Below are positions 8,963 through 36,227 of a stretch of DNA of 64,000 nt, one piece after another. Numbering within the stretch: the first letter of the stretch is position 1; every line of letters begins with the position of its first letter. Both the position numbers and the translations under genes were made by a program. Under the pieces are notes generated by a model. The model ran no database searches and was not told where the DNA came from. It worked only from the letters and a program-made list of their open reading frames with translations. Source of the stretch: an uncultured Chloroflexia bacterium (GTDB lineage: Bacteria > Chloroflexota > Limnocylindria > Limnocylindrales > CSP1-4); contig CAWHXD010000019.1 of the NCBI GenBank assembly GCA_963833225.1, positions 64,001 to 128,000 of the forward strand, written 5' to 3'.

Positions 8963-10257
8963 CCCGGAGTCTCCGCTGCCCCGGCAGCCCCGGTTGCGGC
9001 ATTCGCCGGCCCGTCGGCGTCAGCGTCGGCCGGCGTCTCGTGGTGGTCGGCCGCCGGCCCGTCGGCGGTGCCGTCGGCCGGCGTCGTTGCGTCGATGCCC
9101 TGCGCCCCCTGGCTGCGCATCCACTCCGTGATGTCGTCGAGCCGGATCATGCCCCGCAGGGCGCCGTTCCGGTCCACCACCAGGCCGGCCTGGACGTCGG
9201 CGTCGAGCAGCATCGACAGGGCGTCCTTGAGCGTGGTGCGCCGATCGAACAGGGGCGAGGCCGACTCGACTTGCTCAACCTCGATGGCCCCCGCCGACAG
9301 GTGGTTGCGATGGATCCAGCCGATCGGCTGCATCGCCTCGCCCGTGAGCAGGACGTGCTCGAACGGGTCCTGCGCGGCCAGCCGCCGGATCATGGTCCCG
9401 TTGTCGCCGGGGCGGGCGGTGACGACCGGCGTGAGTGCCAGCTCCCCCACCCGGAACAGGGACAGGCGCTTGAGGCCGCGGTCCGTGCCCACGAACCGGG
9501 CCACGAAGTCCGACGCGGGGTTGGCGAGAATCTCGGCCGGCGTCCCGAACTGCTCCACGACCCCGCCGGCCCGGAAGACCGCCACCAGGTCGCCCATCTT
9601 GATGGCCTCGTCGATGTCGTGGGTGACGAACAGGATCGACTTGGCCAGCTGCTCCTGGAGGCGCAGGAACTCGTTCTGGAGACGCTCTCGAACGATCGGG
9701 TCCACGGCCCCGAACGGCTCGTCCATGAGCATGACCGGTGGATCTGCGGCCAGCGCCCGTGCCACGCCAACGCGCTGTCGCTCGCCGCCGGAGAGCTGGG
9801 TCGGGAAGCGGCTGGCGTAGCTGGCCGGGTCCAGGCCCACCAGGTGGAGGAGCTCGTCGGAGCGCGCCTTGCGCGCGGCAGGCGACCAGCCCAGCAGGCG
9901 CGGCACCGTGGCCACGTTGTCCTCGATCGTCTGGTGGGGGAACAGCCCGGTCTGCTGGATGACGTACCCGATGCCCCGGCGGAGCTCGGTGACATCGCGG
10001 CTCGCGATGTCCACCCCGTCGAGCAGGATCCGGCCCGAGGTTGGCTCGATCAGGCGGTTGACCATCTTGAGCGACGTCGTCTTGCCACAGCCCGACGGCC
10101 CGACCAGCACGCAGATCCTGCCGGCGGGGATGGCCAGGGACAGGTCGTTGACCGCCGCGGGGGTCCCGGTCCTGGCCGCCCGCGGGTCGTAGGACTTGCT
10201 GACGTGGTCGAACTCGACCGTTGCGGCGCGACCGGACGTGGCGGGGGAGGCGGACAT
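8959..10257 (-). CDS. Osmoprotectant ABC ATP-binding protein with C-terminal CBS-like region
   Basis: GPSGCGKTT, LSGGERQR, LMDEPFGAVDP, FVTHDIDEA. Confidence 0.93.
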   Translation of the reverse strand: MSASPATSGRAATVEFDHVSKSYDPRAARTGTPAAVNDLSLAIPAGRICVLVGPSGCGKTTSLKMVNRLIEPTSGRILLDGVDIASRDVTELRRGIGYVIQQTGLFPHQTIEDNVATVPRLLGWSPAARKARSDELLHLVGLDPASYASRFPTQLSGGERQRVGVARALAADPPVMLMDEPFGAVDPIVRERLQNEFLRLQEQLAKSILFVTHDIDEAIKMGDLVAVFRAGGVVEQFGTPAEILANPASDFVARFVGTDRGLKRLSLFRVGELALTPVVTARPGDNGTMIRRLAAQDPFEHVLLTGEAMQPIGWIHRNHLSAGAIEVEQVESASPLFDRRTTLKDALSMLLDADVQAGLVVDRNGALRGMIRLDDITEWMRSQGAQGIDATTPADGTADGPAADHHETPADADADGPANAATGAAGAAETPG

Positions 10258-10442
10258 CGGGCTGGGGGCTCCTCGCGGTTGGGGGAAGGCTACGCGATCA
10301 CGTCGTCCCCGCCCAGCGCGGTGGCGGTTGGTCGCGACCGATGGCACTACCCCCCGGCGGCGGCCCGGACCATCATTGGCGGCGCGATGACGCCGCGGCG
10401 AGTCCCGAGAGGCGCCGTCGGGGCGCGTCGCGAAGGAGACCC

Positions 10443-10766
10443 ATGCTCGAGATGCGCACCCGCACCCGCACCCGCATCGCCATCACCGCCGCGCCAACCG
10501 ACACGGTCCGCGGGCCGCGCACCCGGCTCCAGCTCGAGCTTCGCGATGTCGCCGAGGAGATCACCGGGCGCGTCGACCGTGACGAGCTCAGCCGCTCGGA
10601 CGAGGAAGACATCACCGAGGCGATCGACGCCGCGGTGGCCGCGGCGCTGCCCGATGTCGTGGCCGCCCTGGATCGCGAGCTGACGCCCCGCATCGAGGCG
10701 CTGCCGCTGGCCACACGCCTCACGCTTGCGCAGGCTCGCCGGCGGCGGGACTTCGGGCTCGATTGA
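10443..10766 (+). CDS. Hypothetical small helical protein
   Basis: AAGGAG RBS before ATG 10443; high-GC3 codon usage. Confidence 0.65.
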   Translation: MLEMRTRTRTRIAITAAPTDTVRGPRTRLQLELRDVAEEITGRVDRDELSRSDEEDITEAIDAAVAAALPDVVAALDRELTPRIEALPLATRLTLAQARRRRDFGLD

Positions 10767-10863
10767 CCCGGGCTCGGGCGGGTCGACCCACCGACCCGCC
10801 CGGGACCCAGAGACGCGTGGCGAGCATCAGTCGGCGGATGGCCTGTCATGCGCGGATGGCCTG

Positions 10864-11145
10864 TCAGGCGGCGTCAAGCTCCCGGCTGATCGCCCGGAGG
10901 ATGAACCGGGCCGCCTCGGCGCTCTTGCCGCCCAGCCGTTGCCCGTCGTCCTGCTCCAGCGCGACGGCCAGGTCCGCCAGCATCGCGCCGATCACGGGCG
11001 TCCGCGACAGGACCCCCTGCTCGAACGCCGCCTCCAGCCCGGCGACGGCCTCGCGCGCGTTGTCAACGACGTGGCCCTTCGCCTCCATCCGCTCCCGGAA
11101 TGCGGCGCGCGCCGCCTCGGCAGCCGCGCCAGCGCTGGGTGTCAT
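10864..11145 (-). CDS. Hypothetical small protein
   Basis: GGAGG RBS; overlaps the GNAT stop; ends EAARFILRAISRELDAA. Confidence 0.65.
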   Translation of the reverse strand: MTPSAGAAAEAARAAFRERMEAKGHVVDNAREAVAGLEAAFEQGVLSRTPVIGAMLADLAVALEQDDGQRLGGKSAEAARFILRAISRELDAA

Positions 11146-24467: not shown

Positions 24468-24923
24468 ATGCGTCGCCCCCTCCTCCTGCTCGTCATCGCG
24501 CTGGCGACGGTCCTTGCCGCCTGTGCGTCCGCTGCCGGTCCCGGCTGGACCTACGCGCCACCGACCGAGGCGCCCCCCTCGCAGGCGGCGCCATCCGTGG
24601 CCCCGTCCGAGGCTCCATCGGACGGTGGCGGTGGCAGTGGCGGCACGGTCATCCGCGAGATCGCCAAGGGGATCCAGTTCGTGAACAAGGATCTCTCGGC
24701 GCCCGCCGACACGCCGTTCCAGATCGAGTTCGACAACCAGGACGTGGGCACCCCGCACAACATCGAGATCAAGGACGCCAGTGGTGCGGTCGTGTTCAAG
24801 GGCGAGATCTTCGCCGGTCCCGCCGTCAAGACCTACGACGTCCCGGCCCTGCCCGCGGGCACCTACCCCTTCGTGTGCACCGTGCACCCCAACATGATCG
24901 GCACCCTCACGGTGGGAGGCTGA
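24468..24923 (+). CDS. Cupredoxin-domain lipoprotein
   Basis: Lipobox LAAC, PHN, YPFVCTVHPNMIG type-1 copper ligands. Confidence 0.9.
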   Translation: MRRPLLLLVIALATVLAACASAAGPGWTYAPPTEAPPSQAAPSVAPSEAPSDGGGGSGGTVIREIAKGIQFVNKDLSAPADTPFQIEFDNQDVGTPHNIEIKDASGAVVFKGEIFAGPAVKTYDVPALPAGTYPFVCTVHPNMIGTLTVGG

Positions 24924-24939: not shown

Positions 24940-25690
24940 GTGACCCGCGTCGACGAGGTCTGCTACCGGGACGCCTACGTCCGGACCGCCGAGGCGCGGG
25001 TGCTCGAGGTGTCCGCGTCCGACGGGCCGCCGCTGATCGTGCTCGAGTCGACCCCGTTCTACCCGGGAGGTGGCGGCCAGCCGAGCGACCGGGGACTGAT
25101 CCTGCGGACGGTGGATGGCCGCAGCTGGACCGTCAGCGCCGCGCGGCGCATGGGCGGCGAGATCGTCCACGAGCTGGAGCCGCCCGACGACGGCGAGCTT
25201 CCCGTCGCCGGTGACCGCGTCCGGCTGGACCTCGACTGGGCCCGGCGCCACGCGCTGATGCGCACGCATACCGCGCTCCACGCGCTGTGCGGTGTCGTCT
25301 GGCGTGACTATGGCGCCCTGGTCACGGGCGGCAACATGGAGCCGGGGTCCGGGCGCATGGACTTCGAGTTCGAGACCATGTCCGGAGATCTCGTCGGCGA
25401 GATCGAGGCCAAGGTCAACGACGAGCTGGCGCTGGGGCGCGACGTGCGGGTCAACGTGCTGCCTCGGGACCAGGCCTTCGCGATCCCGGATCTCATCCGG
25501 ACAAAGGTCAACCTCCTGCCGCCCGGGATCGAGCAGATTCGGACCATCGAGATCGTCGGGCTTGACCTGCAGGCTGACGGGGGCACGCACGTCGCGAACA
25601 CCCGGGAAGTCGGGCGAATTTCGTGTTCAGGGATACGAGTCGAAGGGTCGGATCAACAAGCGGATCCGCATCGCGGTCGTCGACGAATAA
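24940..25690 (+). CDS. alaX: Alanyl-tRNA editing protein AlaX (AlaX-M); 1-nt frameshift near 25620
   Basis: TPFYPGGGGQPSD, MRTHTALHAL (HxxxH), QADGGTHV, C-terminal ESKGRINKRIRI in the shifted frame. Confidence 0.9.
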
Positions 25691-26130
25691 GGATCAACCT
25701 CCCGGTTGACCTAATGCGTTGCCACAGCGATGACGGTTGACATTATTCCTCGCCGGTGATGATGATCGATCGCCGCCGACAGACGGTCGGTCGGAAGGAG
25801 TCATCGTCATGCCTCGCTCGAACGCCAACGCTGGCGCGGTCGCCCGCGAACCTGATCGAATTGCCGACGGCACGCCAACCGCGGCGACGACGGCGCGGTG
25901 ATGGTGATCTACGACCGAACGGACGGAAGGGCATCTACCCCTGGCGTCTGCTGTCAGGCCCTGCGTCGTAATCAAGCTGCTGCGCCCGGGTCGCCGCGCA
26001 AGGAGCTCTACCGACACCCACTCTGGCGGAAGTAACCGGCGACCACGGATAGCGAATTGCCCATTGACTCGGTTCGGTCCGCCGCGTTGGCTACCCGGCC
26101 TGCATTCGAGCGCCCCATCGCCAACAGTCG

Positions 26131-26569
26131 TCAGCGCGGATCGCCGGCGCTTGCCTCGGCCGTCGGTTCGGAAGCTGGGACGCAAGGAATGCCAGATCTG
26201 AGATCATCGGCATCAGCTTCCAGCGAGATGGAGCCGTGAAGCAGGGGTGCGGGGCGATTGCAAAGACCTGGTGCTGCGGACGCTCGATCCCTGATCTCGG
26301 GCGAGCAGTGCAACTCGGTGAGCAGGCGCGCTTGCGCCACTCCGGATCGGAGAACAGGCGCTGCAGTTCCGCAACAGACCAGCTACTGGTTCGCAGGTCA
26401 ACTCGATAGGCGACGCCACCACACGTCGCTCTCGCTGGTCTCGACGAAGATGTCGCCGAACGCCGTCACGAGCAGCGGGCGGATGCGCTTGCCTGCTAGC
26501 TCTGGCCACATGCGCAAGGCGTCACTAGATCTCGGCCTCGTCGGGTTTCGCCTCGAACAGCGGATCCAC
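26131..26569 (-). pseudogene. Tdi1/DUF1851 (GAD-like) toxin-immunity-like protein, multiply frameshifted
   Basis: Manual stitching: MDPLFEAKP..LRMWPELAGKRIRPLLVTAFGDIFVE..ELQRLFSDPEW..QVFAIAPHPCFTG; AAAGGGGG RBS before GTG. Confidence 0.5.
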
Positions 26570-26779
26570 GGTCCCCCTTTCCTGCGACGGTCACGAAGTG
26601 ACATGGTGCCAGACTGCTCCTAGGTCGCTCAGGCGGGTCACGCTGGACCACCGTCGGAACGTCGCGCTTCCCCATTCTGCAAGCCGCCGACGTCGCTTGA
26701 CAGGACATACATTCGCTGTCCATCGTCGGCGGTGATGAACGAGAACGGAGCGGCGACGCCGAGGTTGAACTTGGAACGG

Positions 26780-27189
26780 GCGGAAGTCACCGGGTGGAGC
26801 AGCATCCGACGCGAGTGCAGGCAGAGAACATGCTGATCCCGCGTGCCGCGCCATGGTAGACGCCGGGAACCCGGACGGGCTCGCGTGTTCCTGGATGCAG
26901 CAAGCGGTCAGGCGCCATGACGCCACGATCGAGCGCGACATCGAGTTCATGCTCGACCTGACGCGACGTCCGCACCGGCGGCGGGCACGCGAGATCGAGG
27001 TCATGGCGGCGGACGAGATGGAACTCGCGCGGCGCGACGCCACACGCGCGCTGCTCGCCATCCGAACGTCGGCACCGATCAGGAGCGGATCCGGGCGTCC
27101 AACACCGTGCAGATGGTCGAGTTCAAGCGCAAGCACGAGGCGCCGCACTCAAGGCGCAGTACGGCATCGACCTGCCGCCGATCGACTGA
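26780..27189 (+). pseudogene. Hypothetical helical protein, frameshifted
   Basis: IERDIEFMLDL..EMELARRDATRALL..ERIRASNTVQMVEFKRKH..QYGIDLPPID* across frames; start uncertain. Confidence 0.4.
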
Positions 27190-27214
27190 GGTCTCAACGC
27201 TCTATCCTCGGGCC

Positions 27215-27890
27215 ATGGTGGCGAAGCGCACGATCGAGGAGCGGTTCCGGCTCGTCGCCGAGAGCGCGGCGGAACTGGACCGCCATCCAGTGATGGTCGC
27301 TCGAGCGCGGACTACTCTTGAGGTCAAACTCGATGCGGCAGGCCTTCGTGCAACGTCGCCGAGCCTGACCGATCCTCCTGCGTTCGTTGCTTCCGACCTT
27401 GCGGAAGTTCCTCATGGATGGCGACGACCACCACCTGACTGAGATCCACAACCTCGCGCTCCGCCACATCGACGACCGGAACTGGTGCACGCGATCGAGA
27501 GCGCCAAGGAGGGGTACAGAGGCGGGAGGGCAAGGATGGGCCTCCAGTTGAACATCGACAGGAGCTCAGGTGACGCCCCAGCGCGCGGCAGATCTCTGGA
27601 TCAATGGGGTCTACCTCCATTCCGACGTCGACAAGGAGCGCGAACTCACCTCGTTGACCGGCATCGCTCCTGCGCTCGTGCGCAACGCATTCCTGGAGTT
27701 CGTCTTCGCTGTCACCAGCATCGCGATCTTCACCGGCAGCGTGCTTGCCGAGGCGCTGCAGCGCGGGGTGGTTCGGAGTGATGTCGTGCAGATGACCAAC
27801 CGGCACCCCCACACCTTGCAGGATGCCAGCGCGGTCGCATCGCCTCCTGCCGTGGGGATCGACCTGATTGCGCAGGGCCATAGCTGCTAA
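27215..27890 (+). pseudogene. Hypothetical protein, frameshifted (LWINGVYLHSD motif)
   Basis: Coherent stitched protein MVAKRTIEERFRL..RKFLMDGDDHHL..TPQRAADLWINGVYLHSDVDKERELT. Confidence 0.5.
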
Positions 27891-28040
27891 TTGCGGACAG
27901 CGCTTGGGCATCCCGCCGTCCCGACGCTCCGCCGACCGTAGCGCTGGACTGCTACGCGCCATTCCCGAATGTCATCCAACCTGTCACGATCGACTGGCGC
28001 CGTTGATGTGCCACCGAGCGCGCAGGCGCTCGGAGGGTGG

Positions 28041-28808
28041 GTGAGCGACAAGAGCGCAATCGAGTGGACCGACGCCACCTGGAACCCGGTGACCGGGCTG
28101 CTCGAAGGTCTGTCCCGGCTGCGCCTACTGCTACGCCGAGCGGCTGTCGCTCCGCTTCGGCTGGTCCGCACTCCCATGGACACCCGCGAACGCCGCCGAG
28201 AACGTGGTCCTGCATCCCGAGCGACTCGACCAGCCGCTGCGCTGGCGGCAGCCGCGGCGGGTCTTCGTCAACAGCGATGAGCGATCTGTGCCACCGAGCT
28301 CGTGCCGGCCGAATTCATCCACCAGGTGTTCGCGATCGATGGAGGATGCCGGACCGCCACACCTATCCAGATCCTCACCAAGCGCCCCGAGCGGATGCGC
28401 GCCTGGTTCGAGGGACCGGCGTCCGATGGGCGCGGAGCCCCGTTGCCCAACGTGTGGCTCGGCACCTCGATCGAGAACGACCGATGGGTCGGTCGGGCAG
28501 ACGAGCTGCGCGACGACGCCGGCGGCCGTGCGGTTCGTCAGCGCCGAGCCGCTCCTCGGTCCGCTGCCATCCCTGGATCTGGTCGGGCATCGACTGGCTG
28601 ATCGTCGGTGGCGAGTCAGGCTCGAGCCACCGTCCCATGGACGAGGCCTGGGTGCGCGACTTGAAGCGACATGCGCCGAGAGGGCGGGACGGCCTTCTTC
28701 TTCAAGCAGTGGGGTGGCCGGACGCCGAAAGCCGGCGGAAGGCACCTAGATGGTCGAACCTGGGACGAGTACCCGATCGCCCAGCGTGTAGAGGTTGCGC
28801 GATCCTAG
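28041..28808 (+). pseudogene. DUF5131 / phage Gp37-Gp68 family radical-SAM-like protein, multiple frameshifts
   Basis: SAIEWTDATWNPVTGC..CPGC..YCYAER, RVFVNS, QILTKRPERM, NVWLGTSIE, FVSAEPLLG, WLIVGGESG, FFFKQWGG. Confidence 0.85.
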
Positions 28809-29889
28809 GCGCGAATCTCATCACGGTCCCGGGCACGTACGTGCCCTGGCGAGCGCCCGCGGGACGTTTGACAGTCAGCAGTCCGTCCTTCTCGGCGACC
28901 GCCAAGGTCTTGCGCTTGAGGTGCCTGTTCGGCAGGTATGGCGTCGCCAGGAGCGTGTAGTCCTCCGCTTGCTCGATGCTGAATGGCGTGCCGCCGAAGT
29001 TGGACCGTAGTGCCTGACGCAAGACCGTGAAGTCAGGCTCCGGCTTAGAACAGGACCATCTGATCGCGGATCGTGCTGTCTCGGAACCTCTCTCCGCCAG
29101 TTGGGTCAACAGCCCACATGGCCTCCTTCATCTTCTCGAGGCCGAGCGGATTCCAGTGGCGAAGAAGAGGTGATAGCCCATGTTCTCCGCGATGACGATC
29201 TCGAAGGAGCGCACGTACTTGGTTGATCGGGATAGGGCGTCGACGGAATAGCGTCATGGAGCATCTGGCGACGCTCCGCCCCTTCAGCGGAACCGCTGCC
29301 TCGCCATGCGCCGGTCGCCGTAGAGCTTGGTGAAGCGCATGAGCGATGTCGGCTTGCCGACAGCGGGCGATGAATGCGGCGTGGGCAAGTAGATGAGCAC
29401 TTCGCAACGCGGGAACCCGAGGATCCGGCTCGACAGCACGAACTTGGTGTCCTGTAGCCGAAGGGATCAATGAAGGCGAATGTCGGGACGAGTTGCGACG
29501 CGTCGCCCAGCACTTGTTCCATCACCGCTGAGTACTCGCCGTGCATCGGGAACGCCGAGACGTTTGGCGGCAGGGGACGCATCGCCTCGATCTCGTTGGA
29601 CAGGTACTGGGCGCGGTCCGCACGCGACTCGATGAAGAAGTACGACGAGATCGCGCGTCTGGATACGTGCCGCTCTGATCGTGCTCGAGGAACGCCTTGA
29701 GCATGATCTTGGGGGACCCGTCCTCGCCGCCAAGGTAGGTGCCGGGACCCGCGAACCCGTCGATCAGCAGCAACTTCGGGTTGTACCTCGCCATGATCGG
29801 CAGCCAGGCATCGAGGTACTTCCGGAGATCCGGTGCTTCGCCGCCGTGTGCTCGTCGCGCTCCCACAGAACCGTTGACGGTGCTGCCAT
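28805..29889 (-). pseudogene. tcmP: Three-Cys-motif partner protein (TcmP, SAM-methyltransferase-like plus wHTH), multiple frameshifts
   Basis: HTAAKH..LRKYLDAWLPI, IDGFAGPG..GSP, FAFIDPFGY, YHLFF, GLEKMKEAMW. Confidence 0.8.
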
Positions 29890-29960
29890 GCCTTCCCCCG
29901 CTCCCTTCGTGTCCCGCCTCGTCCCCCCTTGTCGGCCGTCCTGCGAAGATGAGAGACGAC

Positions 29961-30798
29961 ATGGCGGCAAGACTTCATCACACTGTAACTACCCAGGAAC
30001 CTGTAGTCGGCTTCGAAGCCGATGGCTGGACGCGGTACCTAACGCTCGAGGGCGACCGGGCATTCGTCATCGGAGGCGCCTGCGACACGTGTGCCTTCAT
30101 GTTCGAGCGGAAGCGCAGCAACCTCCTCTCGCCGACTGTCGTGTCCGATCGCCTTGCTGCCGGACTCGACTTGCTAGGCGACGACCTGCTCGACACGGTG
30201 GGATCCCTGCTTCCGACTGGCGACTACGCCGTTGCGACTGCCACCGTCACCCCGACCCCGAAGCGGTCCGTGTCAGCCTGACGACTACTTCAGTCATGAG
30301 TCGCTGGACTGTTCGGGATGCCGTCCTATGAGGGTGTGCCCGACAACCCGAGAACGCCGTACTGGCGCGCTGGGTCCTGGACGATGCCGCGCGACGCCGG
30401 CGCAAGATGGACACCTGATGGCCCTCGTCCGAGGCCGACGAACCCGAAGCGCTTCTTCCACTTCATCATTCCGCTGGAGCCTCCGCACCATCTCGATCGT
30501 GATCGCGTCGCCCACTGGGAGCGCCAGATTGCGTCGGGTGCTCAGCCAGCGGCTCTCGGGGTCTCGGTCCTCGATGTCCGGGCGCCAGCAGTCACGCCTT
30601 GGGACAAGGACGAGGCGACATACGAGTACGCGGAGCATTGGTGCTTGGCGACCTACCTCCTCGATGGTCACCACAAGGTCGAGGCGGCGGCTCGCGAGCA
30701 ATCGCCCCCTGCGACTCCTCACCTTCGTAGCGCGGGGTGCCTCCGTCGCGAGCGAGCAGGACGTGGACTCGGTCGTCCGGGCCATCTCCAACGGCTAG
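29961..30798 (+). pseudogene. Hypothetical protein with CxxC and ParB/Srx-like LLDGHHK motif, frameshifted
   Basis: GACDTCAF, DYFSHE, PRTPYWR, YLLDGHHKVEAAA across three frames. Confidence 0.55.
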
Positions 30799-30897
30799 CC
30801 ATTGCTGCGCCACGAATGATTCCTTGACGTAACGTGACGCACGTGGCAACCACACGTCGTGCGTCGGCCTCGGTCTGCTAGGCGATGAAGCGCTGGA

Positions 30898-31094
30898 TCA
30901 TCCGGACGAAGGTCAACCTCCTGCCGCCCGGAATCGAGCAGATTCGGACGATCGAAATCGTCGGGCTTGACCTCCAGGCTGACGGGGGTACCCACGTCGC
31001 GAACACCGCCGAGGTCGGGCGGATCCAGGTGACCGGGTACGAGTCCAAGGGCCGTATCAACAAGCGGATCCGCATCGCGGTGGTCGACGACTAA
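30898..31094 (+). pseudogene. alaX: Displaced duplicate 3' end of alaX
   Basis: Encodes IRTKVNLLPPGIEQIRTIEIVGLDLQADGGTHVANT..ESKGRINKRIRIAVVDD*. Confidence 0.9.
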
Positions 31095-31132: not shown

Positions 31133-32315
31133 TCAGTCGCAGAGCCCGATCGGGTCCCAGATCAGCTCGCTCGACTCGAGCGGTGCCCCGACGCTCTTGC
31201 CCTTGCCACCCTTGTTGCTGGTGGCCGTGTACGAGTGCTCGGTCTCGCGCAGGTGCATGTGCGCCTTGAGCTGGTCGTCGATGGTCAGCTCCACGACCCC
31301 GGACGCCTTGCCCTTGGTGCGGACCGTGATCCCACCTCCCGGCGTTGATACCTGGTTGTCGGTGTAGGTGAAGGTTCCGGTCATGACCCCCGTCGAGGAG
31401 GTCGCATCCAGCCGGATGGTCCACGTCTGCTTGCCCTTGGTCGCGAGGACGTCGTACGTGCCCTTGGCGGTCCAGGTGCCGCCGGGGCGCGTCGCACTTC
31501 CGGCCCGCGATCCTCCCGCCAAGGCTCGGGTGGTCGATCTGGTAGTTGCACTTGAGGTCGGTCTTCTTGATCCCGGCCCGCTCGACGAGCCGGTTGATGG
31601 TGGCCTTTTCCACGTTGCCGGCCGCGGTGCTGTTCATGACGTCGACCGCCGCCCCGGCCTTGGGCCGGCTGTGGAGCTTGTGGTCGGCCCCGGTGTAGTC
31701 CTCGTACGTGTCGTGGACGCCCATGACGTGCCCGGCTTCGTGGGCATACAGGTTGGGAGTGTTGATCCCGGGGCGCACGGCCGGATAGCGCCACAGTGAC
31801 GACGAGGCCCCGTTGTTCTGCGGCGTCAGCTGGTCGCTCGGGCTGTTGCCATCCCAGGTGGCGCCGGAGCTCTCGGAGGCCGACACGAAGTTGCGCATGT
31901 ACACGGGCGACTGGTCGATCCGGACCTCGACGCGATCCGTCGGATCCGGTGGGTTCAGGTGGTCATCGACCTTGACGTCGACCTTGACCACCACGTCATA
32001 GCAGTAGTACTGGTGGCCGTTCCAGACCTTCTCGATGTTCTCCTTGATGGCCCGGGCAATGTCGTCCGTCACATGACACCTCGCCACCGCCGCCGGGGTA
32101 CGCGCGGCGGCCAGCTGACCGGGCGTGCAGGCGGGCGTGATCGTGATGCGCACGTTGGCGGTGATGATCTTGGACAGGTCGTCGGTCTTCCAGCTGACAG
32201 CGCTGGCGGTCGCGCCGGCCACCGGCACCGGAGCCACCGCGCCGACGCCGACGAGAATGGCAAGGGCGACCGCCCGGAGCGTCCGAGACAGGATCATCGA
32301 TCTCAGCAGGCTCAT
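31133..32315 (-). CDS. Secreted zinc metallopeptidase (metzincin-like); frameshift near 31490
   Basis: Signal peptide, YAHEAGHVMGVHD (HExxHxxGxxD), DVMN Met-turn, beta-rich C-terminal domain. Confidence 0.7.
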
Positions 32316-33020
32316 GGGACGCTCAATCGGCCGATCGCGGGATCGAACTGCAGCGTTGCCCCGTTGGCGCCGAGCCAGGCCTTCCAGGTGGCCGCGAGGT
32401 CCTGTGGCGTGGCGCCGTCGGGGACGCCGGGGCCGTCGATGTAGCGATCGAGCGTGGAGACCGCGAACTCCGAGATGGCCAGAGGCGGCTGGGATCCGCG
32501 CAGGTCTCCGTCCTCGAGGATCAGGTCAGCGAGGACATCCGCGGCGTCTGATGCCCCCGAGCGAGAGGACGGTCGCCGCGGCCAGCGCGCGGATCGTCGG
32601 ATCGTCGTTGCCGAGGAGCGGTTGCAGGACCGCCGGGTCGCTGCCCACGGTGCCGTACACGAGGGTCGCCGCCCACAGTGCGTCGCCGCTGGCGCCATCC
32701 TGGATCGCGTTCGCAGCCGCGACCGCCCCGGCATCGGTGAACCGGACGGCGTCCACGGCGCTGAGCGATGCCGGGTCGTCGAGGTTGGCGGCGTCGATCG
32801 CGGCCCGGGCTGCCGCGACGTCCGGGTCGCTCGATGAGGAATCGGAGGTAGGCGGAGCGGTCACCGATGCACTTTCCTGGGCGCCGGGGCTCTGGGTGGG
32901 ACGGGGTCCCGTGGTCGTGTCCGGTGAGCCGCAGGCGGCAAGGACCGCCGCCAGGATGGCCGCGAGCATGATCGAGACGGAAGTCCGCCTCCCCACCAAG
33001 AGGACGCCGGGGACCCGCAT
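32312..33020 (-). CDS. HEAT-repeat-like lipoprotein; frameshift near 32560
   Basis: Lipobox LAACG, LQPLLGNDDPTIRALAAATV; ATGA overlap with the peptidase. Confidence 0.6.
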
Positions 33021-33125
33021 CCCCGGACAATGCCACACGCGCGGCCGCGGTTCAATCCGCTATTTCAACCGCCTCGACCGGCGGTTGACTGCGGAATCAA
33101 GGTCCTGGCCGGTCACCGGGGTCGC

Positions 33126-35533: not shown

Positions 35534-36172
35534 TCAGCGCCAGAGATCGGGCGGTGTCACCGTTGCGCCGGCGGCTCGCCGCGAGGCGCTCGAGGACCGA
35601 GTACCAGTCGAACCGGCTGGTGATCTCCGACGCGCGGAGCACGACCAGTCCGCTCGGCGGGGACCAGGTCGGGGAGCGTCCGGTCGAGGATCGCCTCGAT
35701 CTCGTCGCGAAAGGCGTCGCTGGTGGATCGCACGCCGTCCGCCTGGAGGGCGACGTCCGGGAGCAGGCGAACCACCAGGTCGTAGGTCTGCGACCAGCGC
35801 CGGACGAGGGGGCCCACGTCAAACGCGTCGGTCCCGCCGCACGCCCGCAGGTAGTAGGCGTAGTTGTCCATCACCCCGCGATCCGTGGCCAGGACATCGG
35901 CCTTGTGGGCCAGCTCCAGCTCCTGGCGGACCTGGCTGACCAGGACCCACAGCTGCGCCTCGCCGCTCGCCCCCTCGTTGATGCCCAGCGGGTTGTCGCG
36001 CACCACCTCGCGACCCAACTCCACGCTCCGTCCGGCGCGCTGCACCTCGGCCGCGAACGCGAGCAGGGCGCTGGTCTTGCGGATCCCGTGGGACCCGATG
36101 AAGGCGATCTTGGCCGGGCGCGGCCAGGCCGCGGGCGAGCGGGGCGACGGCCTGGATGCGCTTGCGGGGCAT
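35534..36172 (-). CDS. NadR/AAA_28-like nucleoside kinase-fold protein, frameshifted
   Basis: KIAFIGSHGIRKTS, EVVR, TDRGVMDNYAY, ADGVRS across frames; ends approximate. Confidence 0.65.
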
Positions 36173-36227
36173 GCTCACAGGGTAGCCCCGGACGCCGGCG
36201 TGGTGAGGGCCCGGCGCCGGGTCGTCC

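What the first reader, a model, noticed from the sequence alone, without database searches (positions are those of the whole stretch)
25493..31094. Integrase-less island inserted into alaX with a ~197-bp duplicated, diverged 3' gene end
Seen: alaX codons from IRTKVNLL to the stop occur twice, at 25493-25690 and 30898-31094. They are near-identical in protein but differ at many synonymous sites and a few residues (NTREVGRIRVQG..VVDE vs NTAEVGRIQVTG..VVDD). About 5.2 kb of lower-GC accessory DNA lies between them. Established: integrative elements often restore their target gene with their own copy of its 3' end, usually a tRNA, with a short att site and an adjacent integrase. Inference: here the target is a tRNA-editing protein gene, the overlap is unusually long and no recombinase is visible. 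This fits either a homologous-recombination cargo hotspot anchored on alaX or a satellite mobilised in trans.
Basis: partly seen in the sequence, partly recalled or inferred. Interest (0 to 1): 0.72.

Follow-up and report, generated by a model that had tools for sequence, protein, structure and literature searches.

The report
Decayed integrase element inserted in alaX
The duplicated end of the alaX gene marks the two borders of an old phage-like element that once carried its own integrase and a spare copy of the gene's end, an arrangement long known from the e14 element in E. coli, so it is a tidy but ordinary case at a new target gene.

Summary
The last 197-198 bases of alaX occur twice in direct orientation (25493-25690 and 30898-31094), about 87% identical, with lower-GC DNA between them. 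One detail was missed: copy A has one extra base near 25615, so alaX as assembled is frameshifted.

The island is the decayed remnant of a tyrosine-integrase integrative element that targets the alaX 3' end. Five other genomes, in four genera of the same family, show the same layout. In three of them the downstream fragment starts at the same alaX base as here. In four genomes an intact tyrosine integrase gene starts about 120 bases after the alaX stop, and a fifth carries a truncated copy.

The window keeps these parts of the element, collinear with the 10.6-kb element of G295:
- the conserved left-end motif;
- the integrase ribosome-binding site, ATG and first five or six codons;
- a DUF5131/TcmP gene pair (84% DNA identity to G295);
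- the conserved right end.

The integrase body is gone, and no recombinase is detectable on the whole contig. The copy attached to alaX carries the element-type gene end; the distal copy is the displaced host end.

This is the e14/icd-icdC arrangement at a new target gene in uncultured Chloroflexota. Excision could not be tested because no reads were available.

The parts
24940..25690 (+). alaX (AlaX-M-type alanyl-tRNA editing protein). As assembled it is frameshifted by one extra base near 25615.
   Evidence: NF040865 AlaXM E=2.4e-66 (223.8 bits, below the 300-bit cut-off; query cut at the frameshift). Pfam tRNA_SAD and tRNA-synt_2c. ORF 24940-25740 is 266 aa, against about 250 aa in relatives. 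The extra base is seen against three relatives.
25493..25690 (+). Copy A = attL repeat, the alaX 3' end now in use. The first half is host-like; the second half is element-type (..VQGYES..VDE*).
   Evidence: Second half (25591-25687) is 82-84% identical to the alaX-attached copies of element-bearing genomes, 77% to copy B, and 69-79% to the 13 genus relatives without the motif (G013 and G020, which carry it, 81%). First half is 93% identical to copy B and 96% to G006 and G010.
25691..25750 (+). Conserved left end of the element (P' side). It holds heptamer GTCAACC/GGTTGAC copies (palindrome 25694-25709; another GGTTGAC around 25737) and a promoter-like site at 25737-25766.
   Evidence: Conserved directly after the alaX stop in G295, G220, G276, G416, G390, G013, G005, G020, L048 and L050 and G361. 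Promoter-like TTGACA-18-GATGAT, 10 of 12 matches. Hairpin in the fold. Function is inferred.
25793..25828 (+). Remnant of the integrase gene: ribosome-binding site (AAGGAG), ATG at 25809 and the first five or six codons (MPRS..). Homology stops at about 25828.
   Evidence: Alignment with the integrase starts of G295, G220 and G276. blastn 25401-25826 matches G295 at 80%. tblastn with the intact integrases finds nothing further in the island at E<=1e-3.
25829..27968 (.). Unassigned DNA. Coding signal is weak from 25830 to 26800. Plus-strand ORF pieces in shifting frames lie at 26853-27890. A 207-nt stretch (26970-27176) is shared with the G295 element.
   Evidence: GC3 frame plot. blastn 26970-27176 matches G295 at 72%. 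No Pfam, NCBIfam or PHROG match for the ORF pieces.
27969..28808 (+). DUF5131 (phage Gp37/Gp68-type) gene, read in three frames.
   Evidence: PF07505 hits on three ORF pieces covering profile positions 2-16, 87-150 and 206-243. Lies inside the 28032-29899 block that is 83.7% identical to G295.
28810..29892 (-). TcmP (three-Cys-motif partner protein) homologue with several frameshifts and in-frame stops.
   Evidence: tblastn with the G295 402-aa protein: 46% identity, E=8e-83. The G295 protein matches TIGR04474 at E=9.5e-52. The translation shows stops. Indel list.
29982..30827 (+). Two ORF pieces of unknown function (cargo or element right arm).
   Evidence: No family match. No tblastn match in 22 related loci.
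30820..30897 (+). Conserved right end of the element (P side), directly upstream of copy B.
   Evidence: blastn 30820-31088 matches G295 at 82%. Alignment with G295, G220 and G390.
30898..31094 (+). Copy B = attR repeat: the displaced host-type alaX 3' end (..VTGYES..VDD*), with intact frame and no 5' part of the gene.
   Evidence: 81-89% identical to the single alaX 3' end of 14 of 16 genus relatives (75-77% to G008 and G013). tRNA_SAD E=2e-9.

Best explanation
The 5.4-kb segment is the remnant of an integrative, phage-like element. Its tyrosine integrase recombines an element site (attP) with the 3' part of the host gene alaX (attB). The attP contains a roughly 197-bp imitation of the alaX 3' end.

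Integration splits alaX. The element's own gene end, followed by a conserved left-end motif and the integrase gene, becomes the working end of alaX (attL, copy A). The host's original end is left behind the element as a dead fragment (attR, copy B).

In this genome the integrase body and the replication and packaging genes have been deleted. The remaining DUF5131/TcmP cargo reads as frameshifted. The element is therefore stuck: it could leave only by homologous recombination between the two repeats or through an integrase supplied from outside.

Shown: the repeat, the conserved ends, the integrase remnant, collinearity with intact elements elsewhere, and the absence of any recombinase on the contig.

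Inferred: that the integrase catalyses the alaX insertion, where the crossover lies (probably at the left edge of the repeat, later blurred by gene conversion), and that the frameshifts are real rather than assembly errors.
For: 1. Recurrence. 13 of 401 family genomes (the own genome included) have two matches to copy B. Of the 12 others re-examined:
- 5 (G416, G295, G390, G276, G220) have alaX plus a same-strand downstream 3' fragment on one contig, 1.7-16.5 kb away;
- 4 have the second match at or near a contig end;
- 3 have two full-length alaX copies.

2. The fragment begins at the same alaX base (query position 554) in the own genome, G295, G220 and G390, preceded by a conserved right-end sequence.

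3. Integrase. In G295 and G220 an ORF starting about 120 nt after the alaX stop matches PF00589 (7e-30 and 1.2e-23) plus SAM-like N-terminal domains. A scan of one genome per species found 5 relatives, all 5 directly downstream of alaX. Three (L047 = G295, L048, L050) are 94-100% identical to the G295 protein, L049 (= G220) is 71% identical, and L051 (= G276) is truncated.

4. The own island is collinear with the G295 element: 25401-25826 (80%), 26970-27176 (72%), 28032-29899 (83.7% over 1884 nt) and 30820-31088 (82%). The integrase RBS, ATG and first codons are retained and homology then stops.

5. The element origin of the attached gene end shows as a jump in identity at the repeat:
- G008 vs G220 (different genera): 68% and 80% in the alaX 5' parts, 89% and 90% in the repeat;
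- G220 copy A vs its own copy B: 72% and 70%;
- L048 vs L050: 72% and 87% rising to 92% and 98%.

6. No tRNA gene or Rfam family lies at the junctions.

7. Empty or different sites: alaX lies 47 bp from the conserved downstream gene in G014. None of 16 genus relatives shares the island DNA.
Against: - No integrase gene is in the window or on its contig. No close relative of the alaX-linked integrase is anywhere in the own genome at E<=1e-40. Mobility of this copy is therefore unsupported.
- No reads could be obtained, so neither the junctions nor an excised form were verified for this assembly.
- The position where copy A switches from host-like to element-like differs between genomes: whole repeat in G220, about the middle here and in G390 and G416, and the last ~35 nt in G276. 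A strictly site-specific crossover alone does not predict this.
- In G390, G416 and G276 the left parts of the two copies are identical. This needs gene conversion, or could be a polishing artefact of the assemblies.
- No intact element was found in the viral contig collection (best integrase identity 29%).
- Integrase activity on alaX has not been tested in any member.
Confidence: 0.86

Rival explanations
1. A recombinase-free cargo hotspot. DNA is swapped in and out downstream of alaX by homologous recombination anchored on the conserved alaX end, and the duplication arose from a single-crossover (Campbell-type) insertion of a circular DNA carrying an alaX fragment.
For: - The alaX 3' end is highly conserved at the DNA level across the family: 278 of 401 genomes match at E<=1e-8, with 82-90% identity in the 150 matches listed.
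- The DNA between alaX and the downstream conserved block varies from 47 bp to 6.8 kb in 15 of 16 genus relatives.
- Host-to-element switch points in copy A differ between genomes.
Against: - Intact members carry a dedicated tyrosine integrase next to the site, and the window keeps its start.
- The fragment boundary is the same base in four genomes of four genera, and both element ends are conserved.
- The variable DNA of 14 genus relatives holds ordinary chromosomal genes (ECF sigma factors, peptidases, monooxygenases). No second alaX fragment was seen in the 16 relatives' loci.
Confidence: 0.06
2. A primary integrase-less satellite that is integrated and excised by an integrase supplied in trans by a helper element.
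For: - There is no recombinase in the island.
- Intact att-like repeats and conserved ends are retained.
- The intact relatives encode an integrase, a primase-helicase and a large terminase; Pfam recognised no capsid gene in the 17 of their ORFs scanned.
Against: - The integrase RBS, ATG and first codons remain, so the gene was lost by deletion.
- No integrase related at E<=1e-40 exists in the own assembly, which is 86% complete.
- The cargo genes read as broken.
- Other decayed derivatives with different internal deletions exist: G276, G416, G390 and G005.
Confidence: 0.05
3. An assembly artefact: two strains' alaX alleles joined, or a low-coverage strain variant threaded into the contig.
For: - The assembly has 20 contigs and is 86% complete.
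- The island shows about 25 single-base indels in 1.9 kb relative to G295, mostly insertions.
- Genes just right of copy B also change frame.
Against: - The same layout, with the same conserved ends in the same order, occurs in five independent assemblies, one of them on a 2.1-Mb contig.
- The island is collinear with the G295 element.
- Flanking genes do not show the same indel load at a similar divergence.
Confidence: 0.03

Closest known systems
e14 cryptic prophage (and, from recall, phage 21) integrated in the icd gene of Escherichia coli, leaving the icdC pseudogene
   Same: - The element inserts in the 3' part of a housekeeping protein gene.
- It carries its own, slightly different copy of the gene's end, so the gene stays whole.
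- The displaced host end remains as a C-terminal fragment pseudogene at the far border.
- The two copies differ mostly at synonymous sites and in a few residues.
(Passages of PMC13626634 read, which cite Hill et al. 1989. The phage 21 case is recalled, not read.)
   Different: - The target is alaX, not icd.
- The hosts are uncultured Chloroflexota.
- The integrase is a XerC/D-like tyrosine recombinase.
- The copy in this window has lost its integrase, whereas e14 still excises.
- No excision data exist here.
Genomic islands and prophages at tRNA/tmRNA gene 3' ends with an adjacent tyrosine integrase
   Same: attL next to the integrase, the element-borne gene end restoring the target, direct repeats at both borders, and frequent decay into integrase-less remnants (general knowledge, recalled).
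   Different: The target is a protein gene. No tRNA or Rfam RNA lies in 20-40 kb of the window. The repeat is about 197 bp instead of the few tens of bases usual at tRNA sites.
'Grounded' or cryptic prophage remnants
   Same: Loss of the integrase and of replication and packaging genes by internal deletion, with some cargo and the att borders retained. (PMC6379469 was seen only as title and abstract start in the listing.)
   Different: Here the remnant still supplies the working 3' end of a host gene. Its left border therefore cannot be lost without truncating alaX.
Phage satellites (PICI-like elements)
   Same: The intact relatives (10.6 and 16.5 kb) encode an integrase, a Toprim/AAA_25 primase-helicase and a large terminase; Pfam recognised no capsid or tail genes in the 17 of their ORFs scanned.
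   Different: Helper dependence is untested. Many of their ORFs have no family match, so structural genes may be present but unrecognised. No related element was found in the viral contigs.

Membership tests
Integrase-mediated integrative element in the 3' end of a protein gene (e14/icd type) | Direct repeat of the target gene's 3' end at both borders of the insert | tested here: met
   25493-25690 and 30898-31094, 87% identical, E=1.3e-62. These are the only two copies in the genome.
Integrase-mediated integrative element in the 3' end of a protein gene (e14/icd type) | Site-specific recombinase gene next to one border | tested here: not met
   The window and its whole contig have no PF00589 or PF00239 match at E<=1. 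Only the RBS, ATG and five or six codons remain. The feature is met in relatives: G295, G220, L048 and L050 intact, G276 truncated.
Integrase-mediated integrative element in the 3' end of a protein gene (e14/icd type) | The element-borne gene end keeps the target gene open | tested here: inconclusive
   Copy A encodes the full end, but one extra base near 25615 breaks the frame as assembled. This could be real or an assembly error. The single alaX ORFs of the genus relatives are about 250 aa and open.
Integrase-mediated integrative element in the 3' end of a protein gene (e14/icd type) | Unoccupied target sites in related genomes | tested here: met
   265 of the 278 genomes with a match have a single alaX 3' end. 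In G014, alaX lies 47 bp from the downstream conserved gene.
Integrase-mediated integrative element in the 3' end of a protein gene (e14/icd type) | Excision and integration demonstrated (circular junction, restored attB) | not testable with these tools
   No sequencing run was listed for the stretch.
Tyrosine recombinase (for the integrases of G295 and G220) | Phage_integrase catalytic domain with the R..K..HxxR..H/W..Y residues | tested here: met
   PF00589 at 7e-30 and 1.2e-23. GMRRAE, AKGKKAR, HPHxFRH, GW and RYG are conserved in both proteins. Assignment of these to the catalytic residues is from recall.
AlaX trans-editing protein (target gene) | Match to the AlaX-M model and the tRNA_SAD domain | tested here: inconclusive
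   NF040865 at 2.4e-66 but 223.8 bits, below the 300-bit cut-off, with the query cut at the frameshift. The first 226 residues match tRNA_SAD at 23.4 bits, just below the 24-bit cut-off; copy B matches at 2e-9, 37.7 bits.
DUF5131 / TcmP gene pair (cargo) | Adjacent PF07505 and TIGR04474 genes | tested here: met
   PF07505 on three ORF pieces. The G295 orthologue matches TIGR04474 at 9.5e-52. The own copy is 46% identical in protein and 83.7% in DNA to the G295 pair. Both own genes read as broken.
Phage satellite (PICI-like) | Helper-dependent packaging and lack of own structural genes | not testable with these tools
   The 17 ORFs scanned from the two intact relatives show an integrase, a primase-helicase and a large terminase; the G220 element also an HTH protein, a proteasome-like protein and a DNA methylase. 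Absence of capsid genes rests only on the lack of Pfam or PHROG matches.

The most novel reading that the evidence does not exclude
The element's imitation of the alaX end is not a passive att site. It may repeatedly exchange sequence with the host gene by gene conversion or variable crossover within the 197-bp homology. After the element decays, the element-borne C-terminus stays fixed in the host protein.

G013 and G008 carry the element-type alaX end without any second copy, and that end is 89-94% identical to the one in G220, a different genus. AlaX C-termini in this Chloroflexota family would then be a mosaic spread horizontally by an integrative element. The element itself would be stabilised because losing its left border truncates a tRNA-editing gene.
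Probability: 0.4. Interest if true: 0.45.

Novelty: new member of a known kind. Interest (0 to 1): 0.33.

Why it matters
- It adds alaX to the list of protein genes used as attachment sites by integrase elements. Two full-text searches for alaX with integrase or attB found no relevant paper.
- It documents a small family of such elements in uncultured Chloroflexota, from intact copies to several independently decayed remnants.
- Practically, it explains an odd-looking 'integrase-less' island. It also warns annotators that the 69-codon ORF at 30885-31094 is a displaced gene end, not a gene.
- The wider biology is already known from e14/icd and from tRNA-site islands.

Tried and rejected
Reads. 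The look-up of sequencing runs on window:24900-31400 listed no run. Junction spanning, coverage, excision junctions and the reality of the frameshifts remain untested.

No earlier notes were seen.

Viral contigs. A scan with the two-integrase alignment gave 6 loci of at most 29% identity, so no free phage form was found.

Short-motif search. blastn-type search of 401 family genomes with the 143-nt left end (25688-25830) matched 12 of 401 genomes. Only the own genome, G295, G416 and G361 match at alaX. It missed G220, G276 and G005, which carry a diverged motif, so it undercounts.

Cargo. No Pfam, NCBIfam or PHROG match for the own-specific ORF pieces 25694-26185, 26258-26623, 26853-27890 and 29982-30827, nor for 31133-31522 and 32312-33038. 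The piece 31523-32315 gave only a weak hit to an M6 metalloprotease domain (E=0.0019, below cut-off).

The tblastx comparison was too noisy to use; only its blastn part is cited.

Third degenerate alaX copy, or tandem accretion: none found by the nhmmer profile.

Crossover site. I could not fix it. A palindrome CCGGAyCTsATCCGG straddles the left edge of the repeat in alaX (read from the alignment), and GTCAACC heptamers recur. Neither was tested.

Pseudogene versus assembly error, undecided:
- Own vs G295 substitutions are three times more frequent at third codon positions (0.30-0.40 against 0.09-0.13). The genes were therefore under selection for most of their divergence, and the roughly 25 indels are either recent or errors.
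- The excess of insertions (19 against 6) leans towards errors.
- Loss of the integrase body is structural and real in either case.

Supplementary files of papers were not consulted.

Unpublished genomes. G121 and G391 and G121 and G231 are included only in tallies; no specific claim rests on them.

Full report
**Observation**

The last 197-198 bases of alaX are present twice in direct orientation: 25493-25690, attached to the gene (copy A), and 30898-31094 (copy B). The repeat finder reports 91% identity over the first 127 nt and 90% over the last 60 nt. The spacing changes from 5405 to 5404, so there is a 1-nt indel between the blocks. The pairwise alignment shows homology switching on at TCATCCGGAC and off exactly at the stop codon.

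In the whole 3.89-Mb assembly these are the only two copies (E=1.3e-62; nhmmer profile). Outside the indel patch, 45 of 60 codons are identical, 13 differ synonymously and 2 non-synonymously.

GC is 0.61-0.69 between the copies and 0.72-0.78 upstream of alaX. The ORF from 24940 therefore leaves frame and ends at 25740 (266 aa), while relatives have about 250 aa.

**Surroundings in relatives**

The window is G000:C19:64001-128000. In 16 genomes of the same genus the cupredoxin-alaX pair is syntenic and alaX is single-copy. The conserved block from about 33100/33700 onward was found in 15 of the 16 loci; it was not found in the 10 kb fetched for G024. None of the 16 shares the DNA of 25751-30897.

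The distance from the alaX stop to the first conserved downstream block ranges from 47 bp (G014) to 6.8 kb (G019). Thirty-six ORFs from these variable stretches in 14 relatives are ordinary chromosomal genes: ECF sigma factors, S10 peptidases, luciferase-like monooxygenases and a SpoIIE phosphatase. One DNA methylase fragment in G005 belongs to the element family. No integrase family is among the 25 of 27 families shown. The neighbourhood is therefore variable but not obviously a mobile-element dump.

**The same architecture elsewhere**

Copy B as query against 401 genomes of the family matched 278. Thirteen genomes, the own one included, had two matches. The 12 others were re-examined with the whole alaX:
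- Five (G416, G295, G390, G276, G220) have alaX plus a same-strand partial 3' copy downstream on the same contig. The gaps are 1.7, 10.6, 2.1, 2.5 and 16.5 kb.
- Four (G383, G429, G134, G256) have the second match at or near the end of another contig, as expected if the repeat breaks assemblies.
- Three (G353, G049, G398) have two full-length alaX copies on different contigs, which is a different matter.

In the own genome, G295, G220 and G390, from four genera, the fragment starts at the same alaX position. It is preceded by a conserved sequence of about 60-80 nt.

All alaX-attached copies in these genomes end with ..GACGAATAA or a close variant. A conserved motif of about 60 nt follows. It is also present after alaX in G013, G005 and G020, in G361, and in L048 and L050.

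**The integrase**

About 120 nt after the alaX stop, G295 and G220 have ORFs of 318 and 332 aa. They match PF00589 (7e-30 and 1.2e-23) and the SAM-like N-terminal domains. They are 71% identical to each other and share the motifs expected of tyrosine recombinases (the residue assignment is from recall). NCBIfam places them nearest XerC/XerD, below the equivalog cut-offs.

Among 401 family genomes, 128 have some match at E<=1e-40. Only G295, G220 (71%) and G276 (69%, residues 1-172 only) exceed 50% identity in the 150 rows listed. The own genome has no match.

A pattern scan of one genome per species (185,579 species) found five relatives: L047 (= G295), L048 (95%), L050 (94%), L049 (= G220) and L051 (= G276, truncated). 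All five lie directly downstream of alaX, with the motif between. Their record titles name Chloroflexota MAGs, one of them 'Candidatus Limnocylindrales'.

The G295 and G220 elements share a backbone: integrase, small ORFs, a Toprim/AAA_25 primase-helicase and a large terminase. Their right halves differ. G295 has DUF5131 plus TcmP; G220 has a DNA methylase, a proteasome-like protein and others.

**What the window holds**

blastn of the island against the G295 element gives four collinear blocks:

| Window | Content | Identity to G295 |
|---|---|---|
| 25401-25826 | alaX end, motif, integrase 5' region | 80% |
| 26970-27176 | unassigned stretch | 72% |
| 28032-29899 | DUF5131 and TcmP | 83.7% over 1884 nt |
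| 30820-31088 | right end and copy B | 82% |

The multiple alignment shows the integrase ribosome-binding site, the ATG (25809) and the first five or six codons conserved in the window. Similarity stops after that. tblastn with the intact integrases finds nothing more. Six-frame HMM searches find no tyrosine or serine recombinase on the whole contig. The window's island is therefore a deletion derivative that lost the integrase body and the replication and packaging genes.

G276 (truncated integrase plus a methylase fragment), G005 (motif plus the same methylase fragment), G416 and G390 are other, independently decayed derivatives.

No tRNA gene and no Rfam family lie near the junctions.

**Which copy is whose**

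Copies attached to alaX carry an element-type end, and distal copies carry a host-type end.
- G220: the two copies are only 72% and 70% identical. The distal copy resembles the alaX of G276, a genome of the same genus (85% and 87%).
- G008 and G013 (the window's genus): the single alaX end is 89-94% identical to the attached copy of G220, a different genus, although the 5' parts of alaX are only 68% and 80% identical.
- L048 and L050: 72% and 87% in the 5' parts, rising to 92% and 98% in the repeat.
- This window: the second half of copy A (25591-25687) is closest to the attached copies of element-bearing genomes (82-84%), against 77% to copy B. Its first half is host-like (93% to copy B, 96% to G006 and G010).

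The switch point thus differs between genomes: the whole repeat in G220, about the middle here and in G390 and G416, and the last ~35 nt in G276.

My reading, which is inference, is a crossover at the left edge of the repeat. An element needs to carry the gene only from the crossover to the stop codon, which fits the fixed left boundary. Gene conversion from the distal copy would then have followed. It would also explain why the left parts of both copies are identical in G390, G416 and G276. Variable RecA-type crossovers or assembly polishing artefacts are alternatives that I cannot exclude.

**State of the remnant**

Relative to G295, the DUF5131-TcmP block has about 19 single-base insertions and 6 single-base deletions in 1.9 kb. 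The translation shows frame changes and stops. Flanking genes compared with G008 at a similar divergence (83.5%) show mainly compensated or intergenic single-base gaps.

Substitutions against G295 are three times more frequent at third codon positions. The genes were therefore under selection for most of their divergence. The indels are either recent decay or errors of a locally poor assembly, and the excess of insertions leans towards errors. Without reads this stays open. G295's own DUF5131 also has one frame change. Loss of the integrase is structural and does not depend on this question.

**Mechanism and comparison**

The best-supported model is classical integrase-mediated insertion into a protein gene's 3' end, with an element-borne replacement end. 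This is known from e14 in icd, with the icdC pseudogene at the far border. Passages of PMC13626634 were read; they cite Hill et al. 1989, which I did not read.

What differs here:
- the target gene (AlaX-M-type editing protein);
- the host group;
- the decayed state of this copy.

A promoter-like site (TTGACA-18-GATGAT, 25737-25766) sits upstream of the integrase start. Three copies of the heptamer GTCAACC/GGTTGAC lie in the left-end motif. Their roles as integrase promoter and binding sites are conjecture.

Two full-text searches for alaX together with integrase or attB returned nothing relevant. Two papers held both 'alaX' and 'integrase', and both were unrelated by title and abstract start.

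**Verdict**

- The feature is a new member of a known kind and of modest interest.
- The most novel reading still open is that the element spreads and fixes its own AlaX C-terminus in host genes (G008 and G013 have it without a second copy) and exchanges sequence with the host gene by conversion.

Noticed in passing
window 24657-24923 (3' part of the cupredoxin gene 24468-24923): This 267-nt stretch recurs at 99% identity at G000:C19:171856-172122, outside the window. Weaker copies exist elsewhere in the own genome and in relatives, so the cupredoxin domain is a multi-copy family here.
   Followed up: no
window 31133-32315 (-) and 32312-33038 (-): The two genes just right of copy B each change reading frame once by GC3 phase and ORF layout. 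One has an HEAGH metalloprotease-like motif; the other begins with a lipoprotein-like signal. Both lie in lower-GC DNA (0.64-0.68, rising to about 0.72 from 32200). Neither has a homologue in the 22 related loci searched. Whether this is native DNA or an older island is open.
   Followed up: partly
window 35576 and 35647: The own sequence has two uncompensated extra bases relative to G008, G013 and G014 inside a block (35538-36173) that is 80-84% conserved across the genus. These are possible frameshifts or a non-coding conserved element.
   Followed up: no
window 25686-25766: The left-end motif contains GTCAACC/GGTTGAC three times: a palindrome at 25694-25709 and a third copy around 25737. 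The same heptamer occurs in alaX at the left edge of the repeat (about 25504-25510). There is also a sigma-70-like site, TTGACA-18-GATGAT, upstream of the integrase ATG.
   Followed up: partly
G353, G049, G398 (handles): These three genomes have two full-length alaX copies on separate contigs. Within G353 and within G049 the two copies match the query equally well (both 82% in G353; identical scores in G049), which suggests duplicated contigs or mixed strains rather than element insertion.
   Followed up: no
L033 (G295), oriented positions about 10100-10930: The DUF5131 gene of the otherwise intact G295 element also needs one frame change near its C-terminal third.
   Followed up: no
alaX 25476-25500 and the same place in relatives: The left boundary of the repeat falls in the middle of a palindrome, CCGGAyCTsATCCGG, in the alaX coding sequence (read from the alignment). 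It is a candidate core site and was not tested.
   Followed up: no
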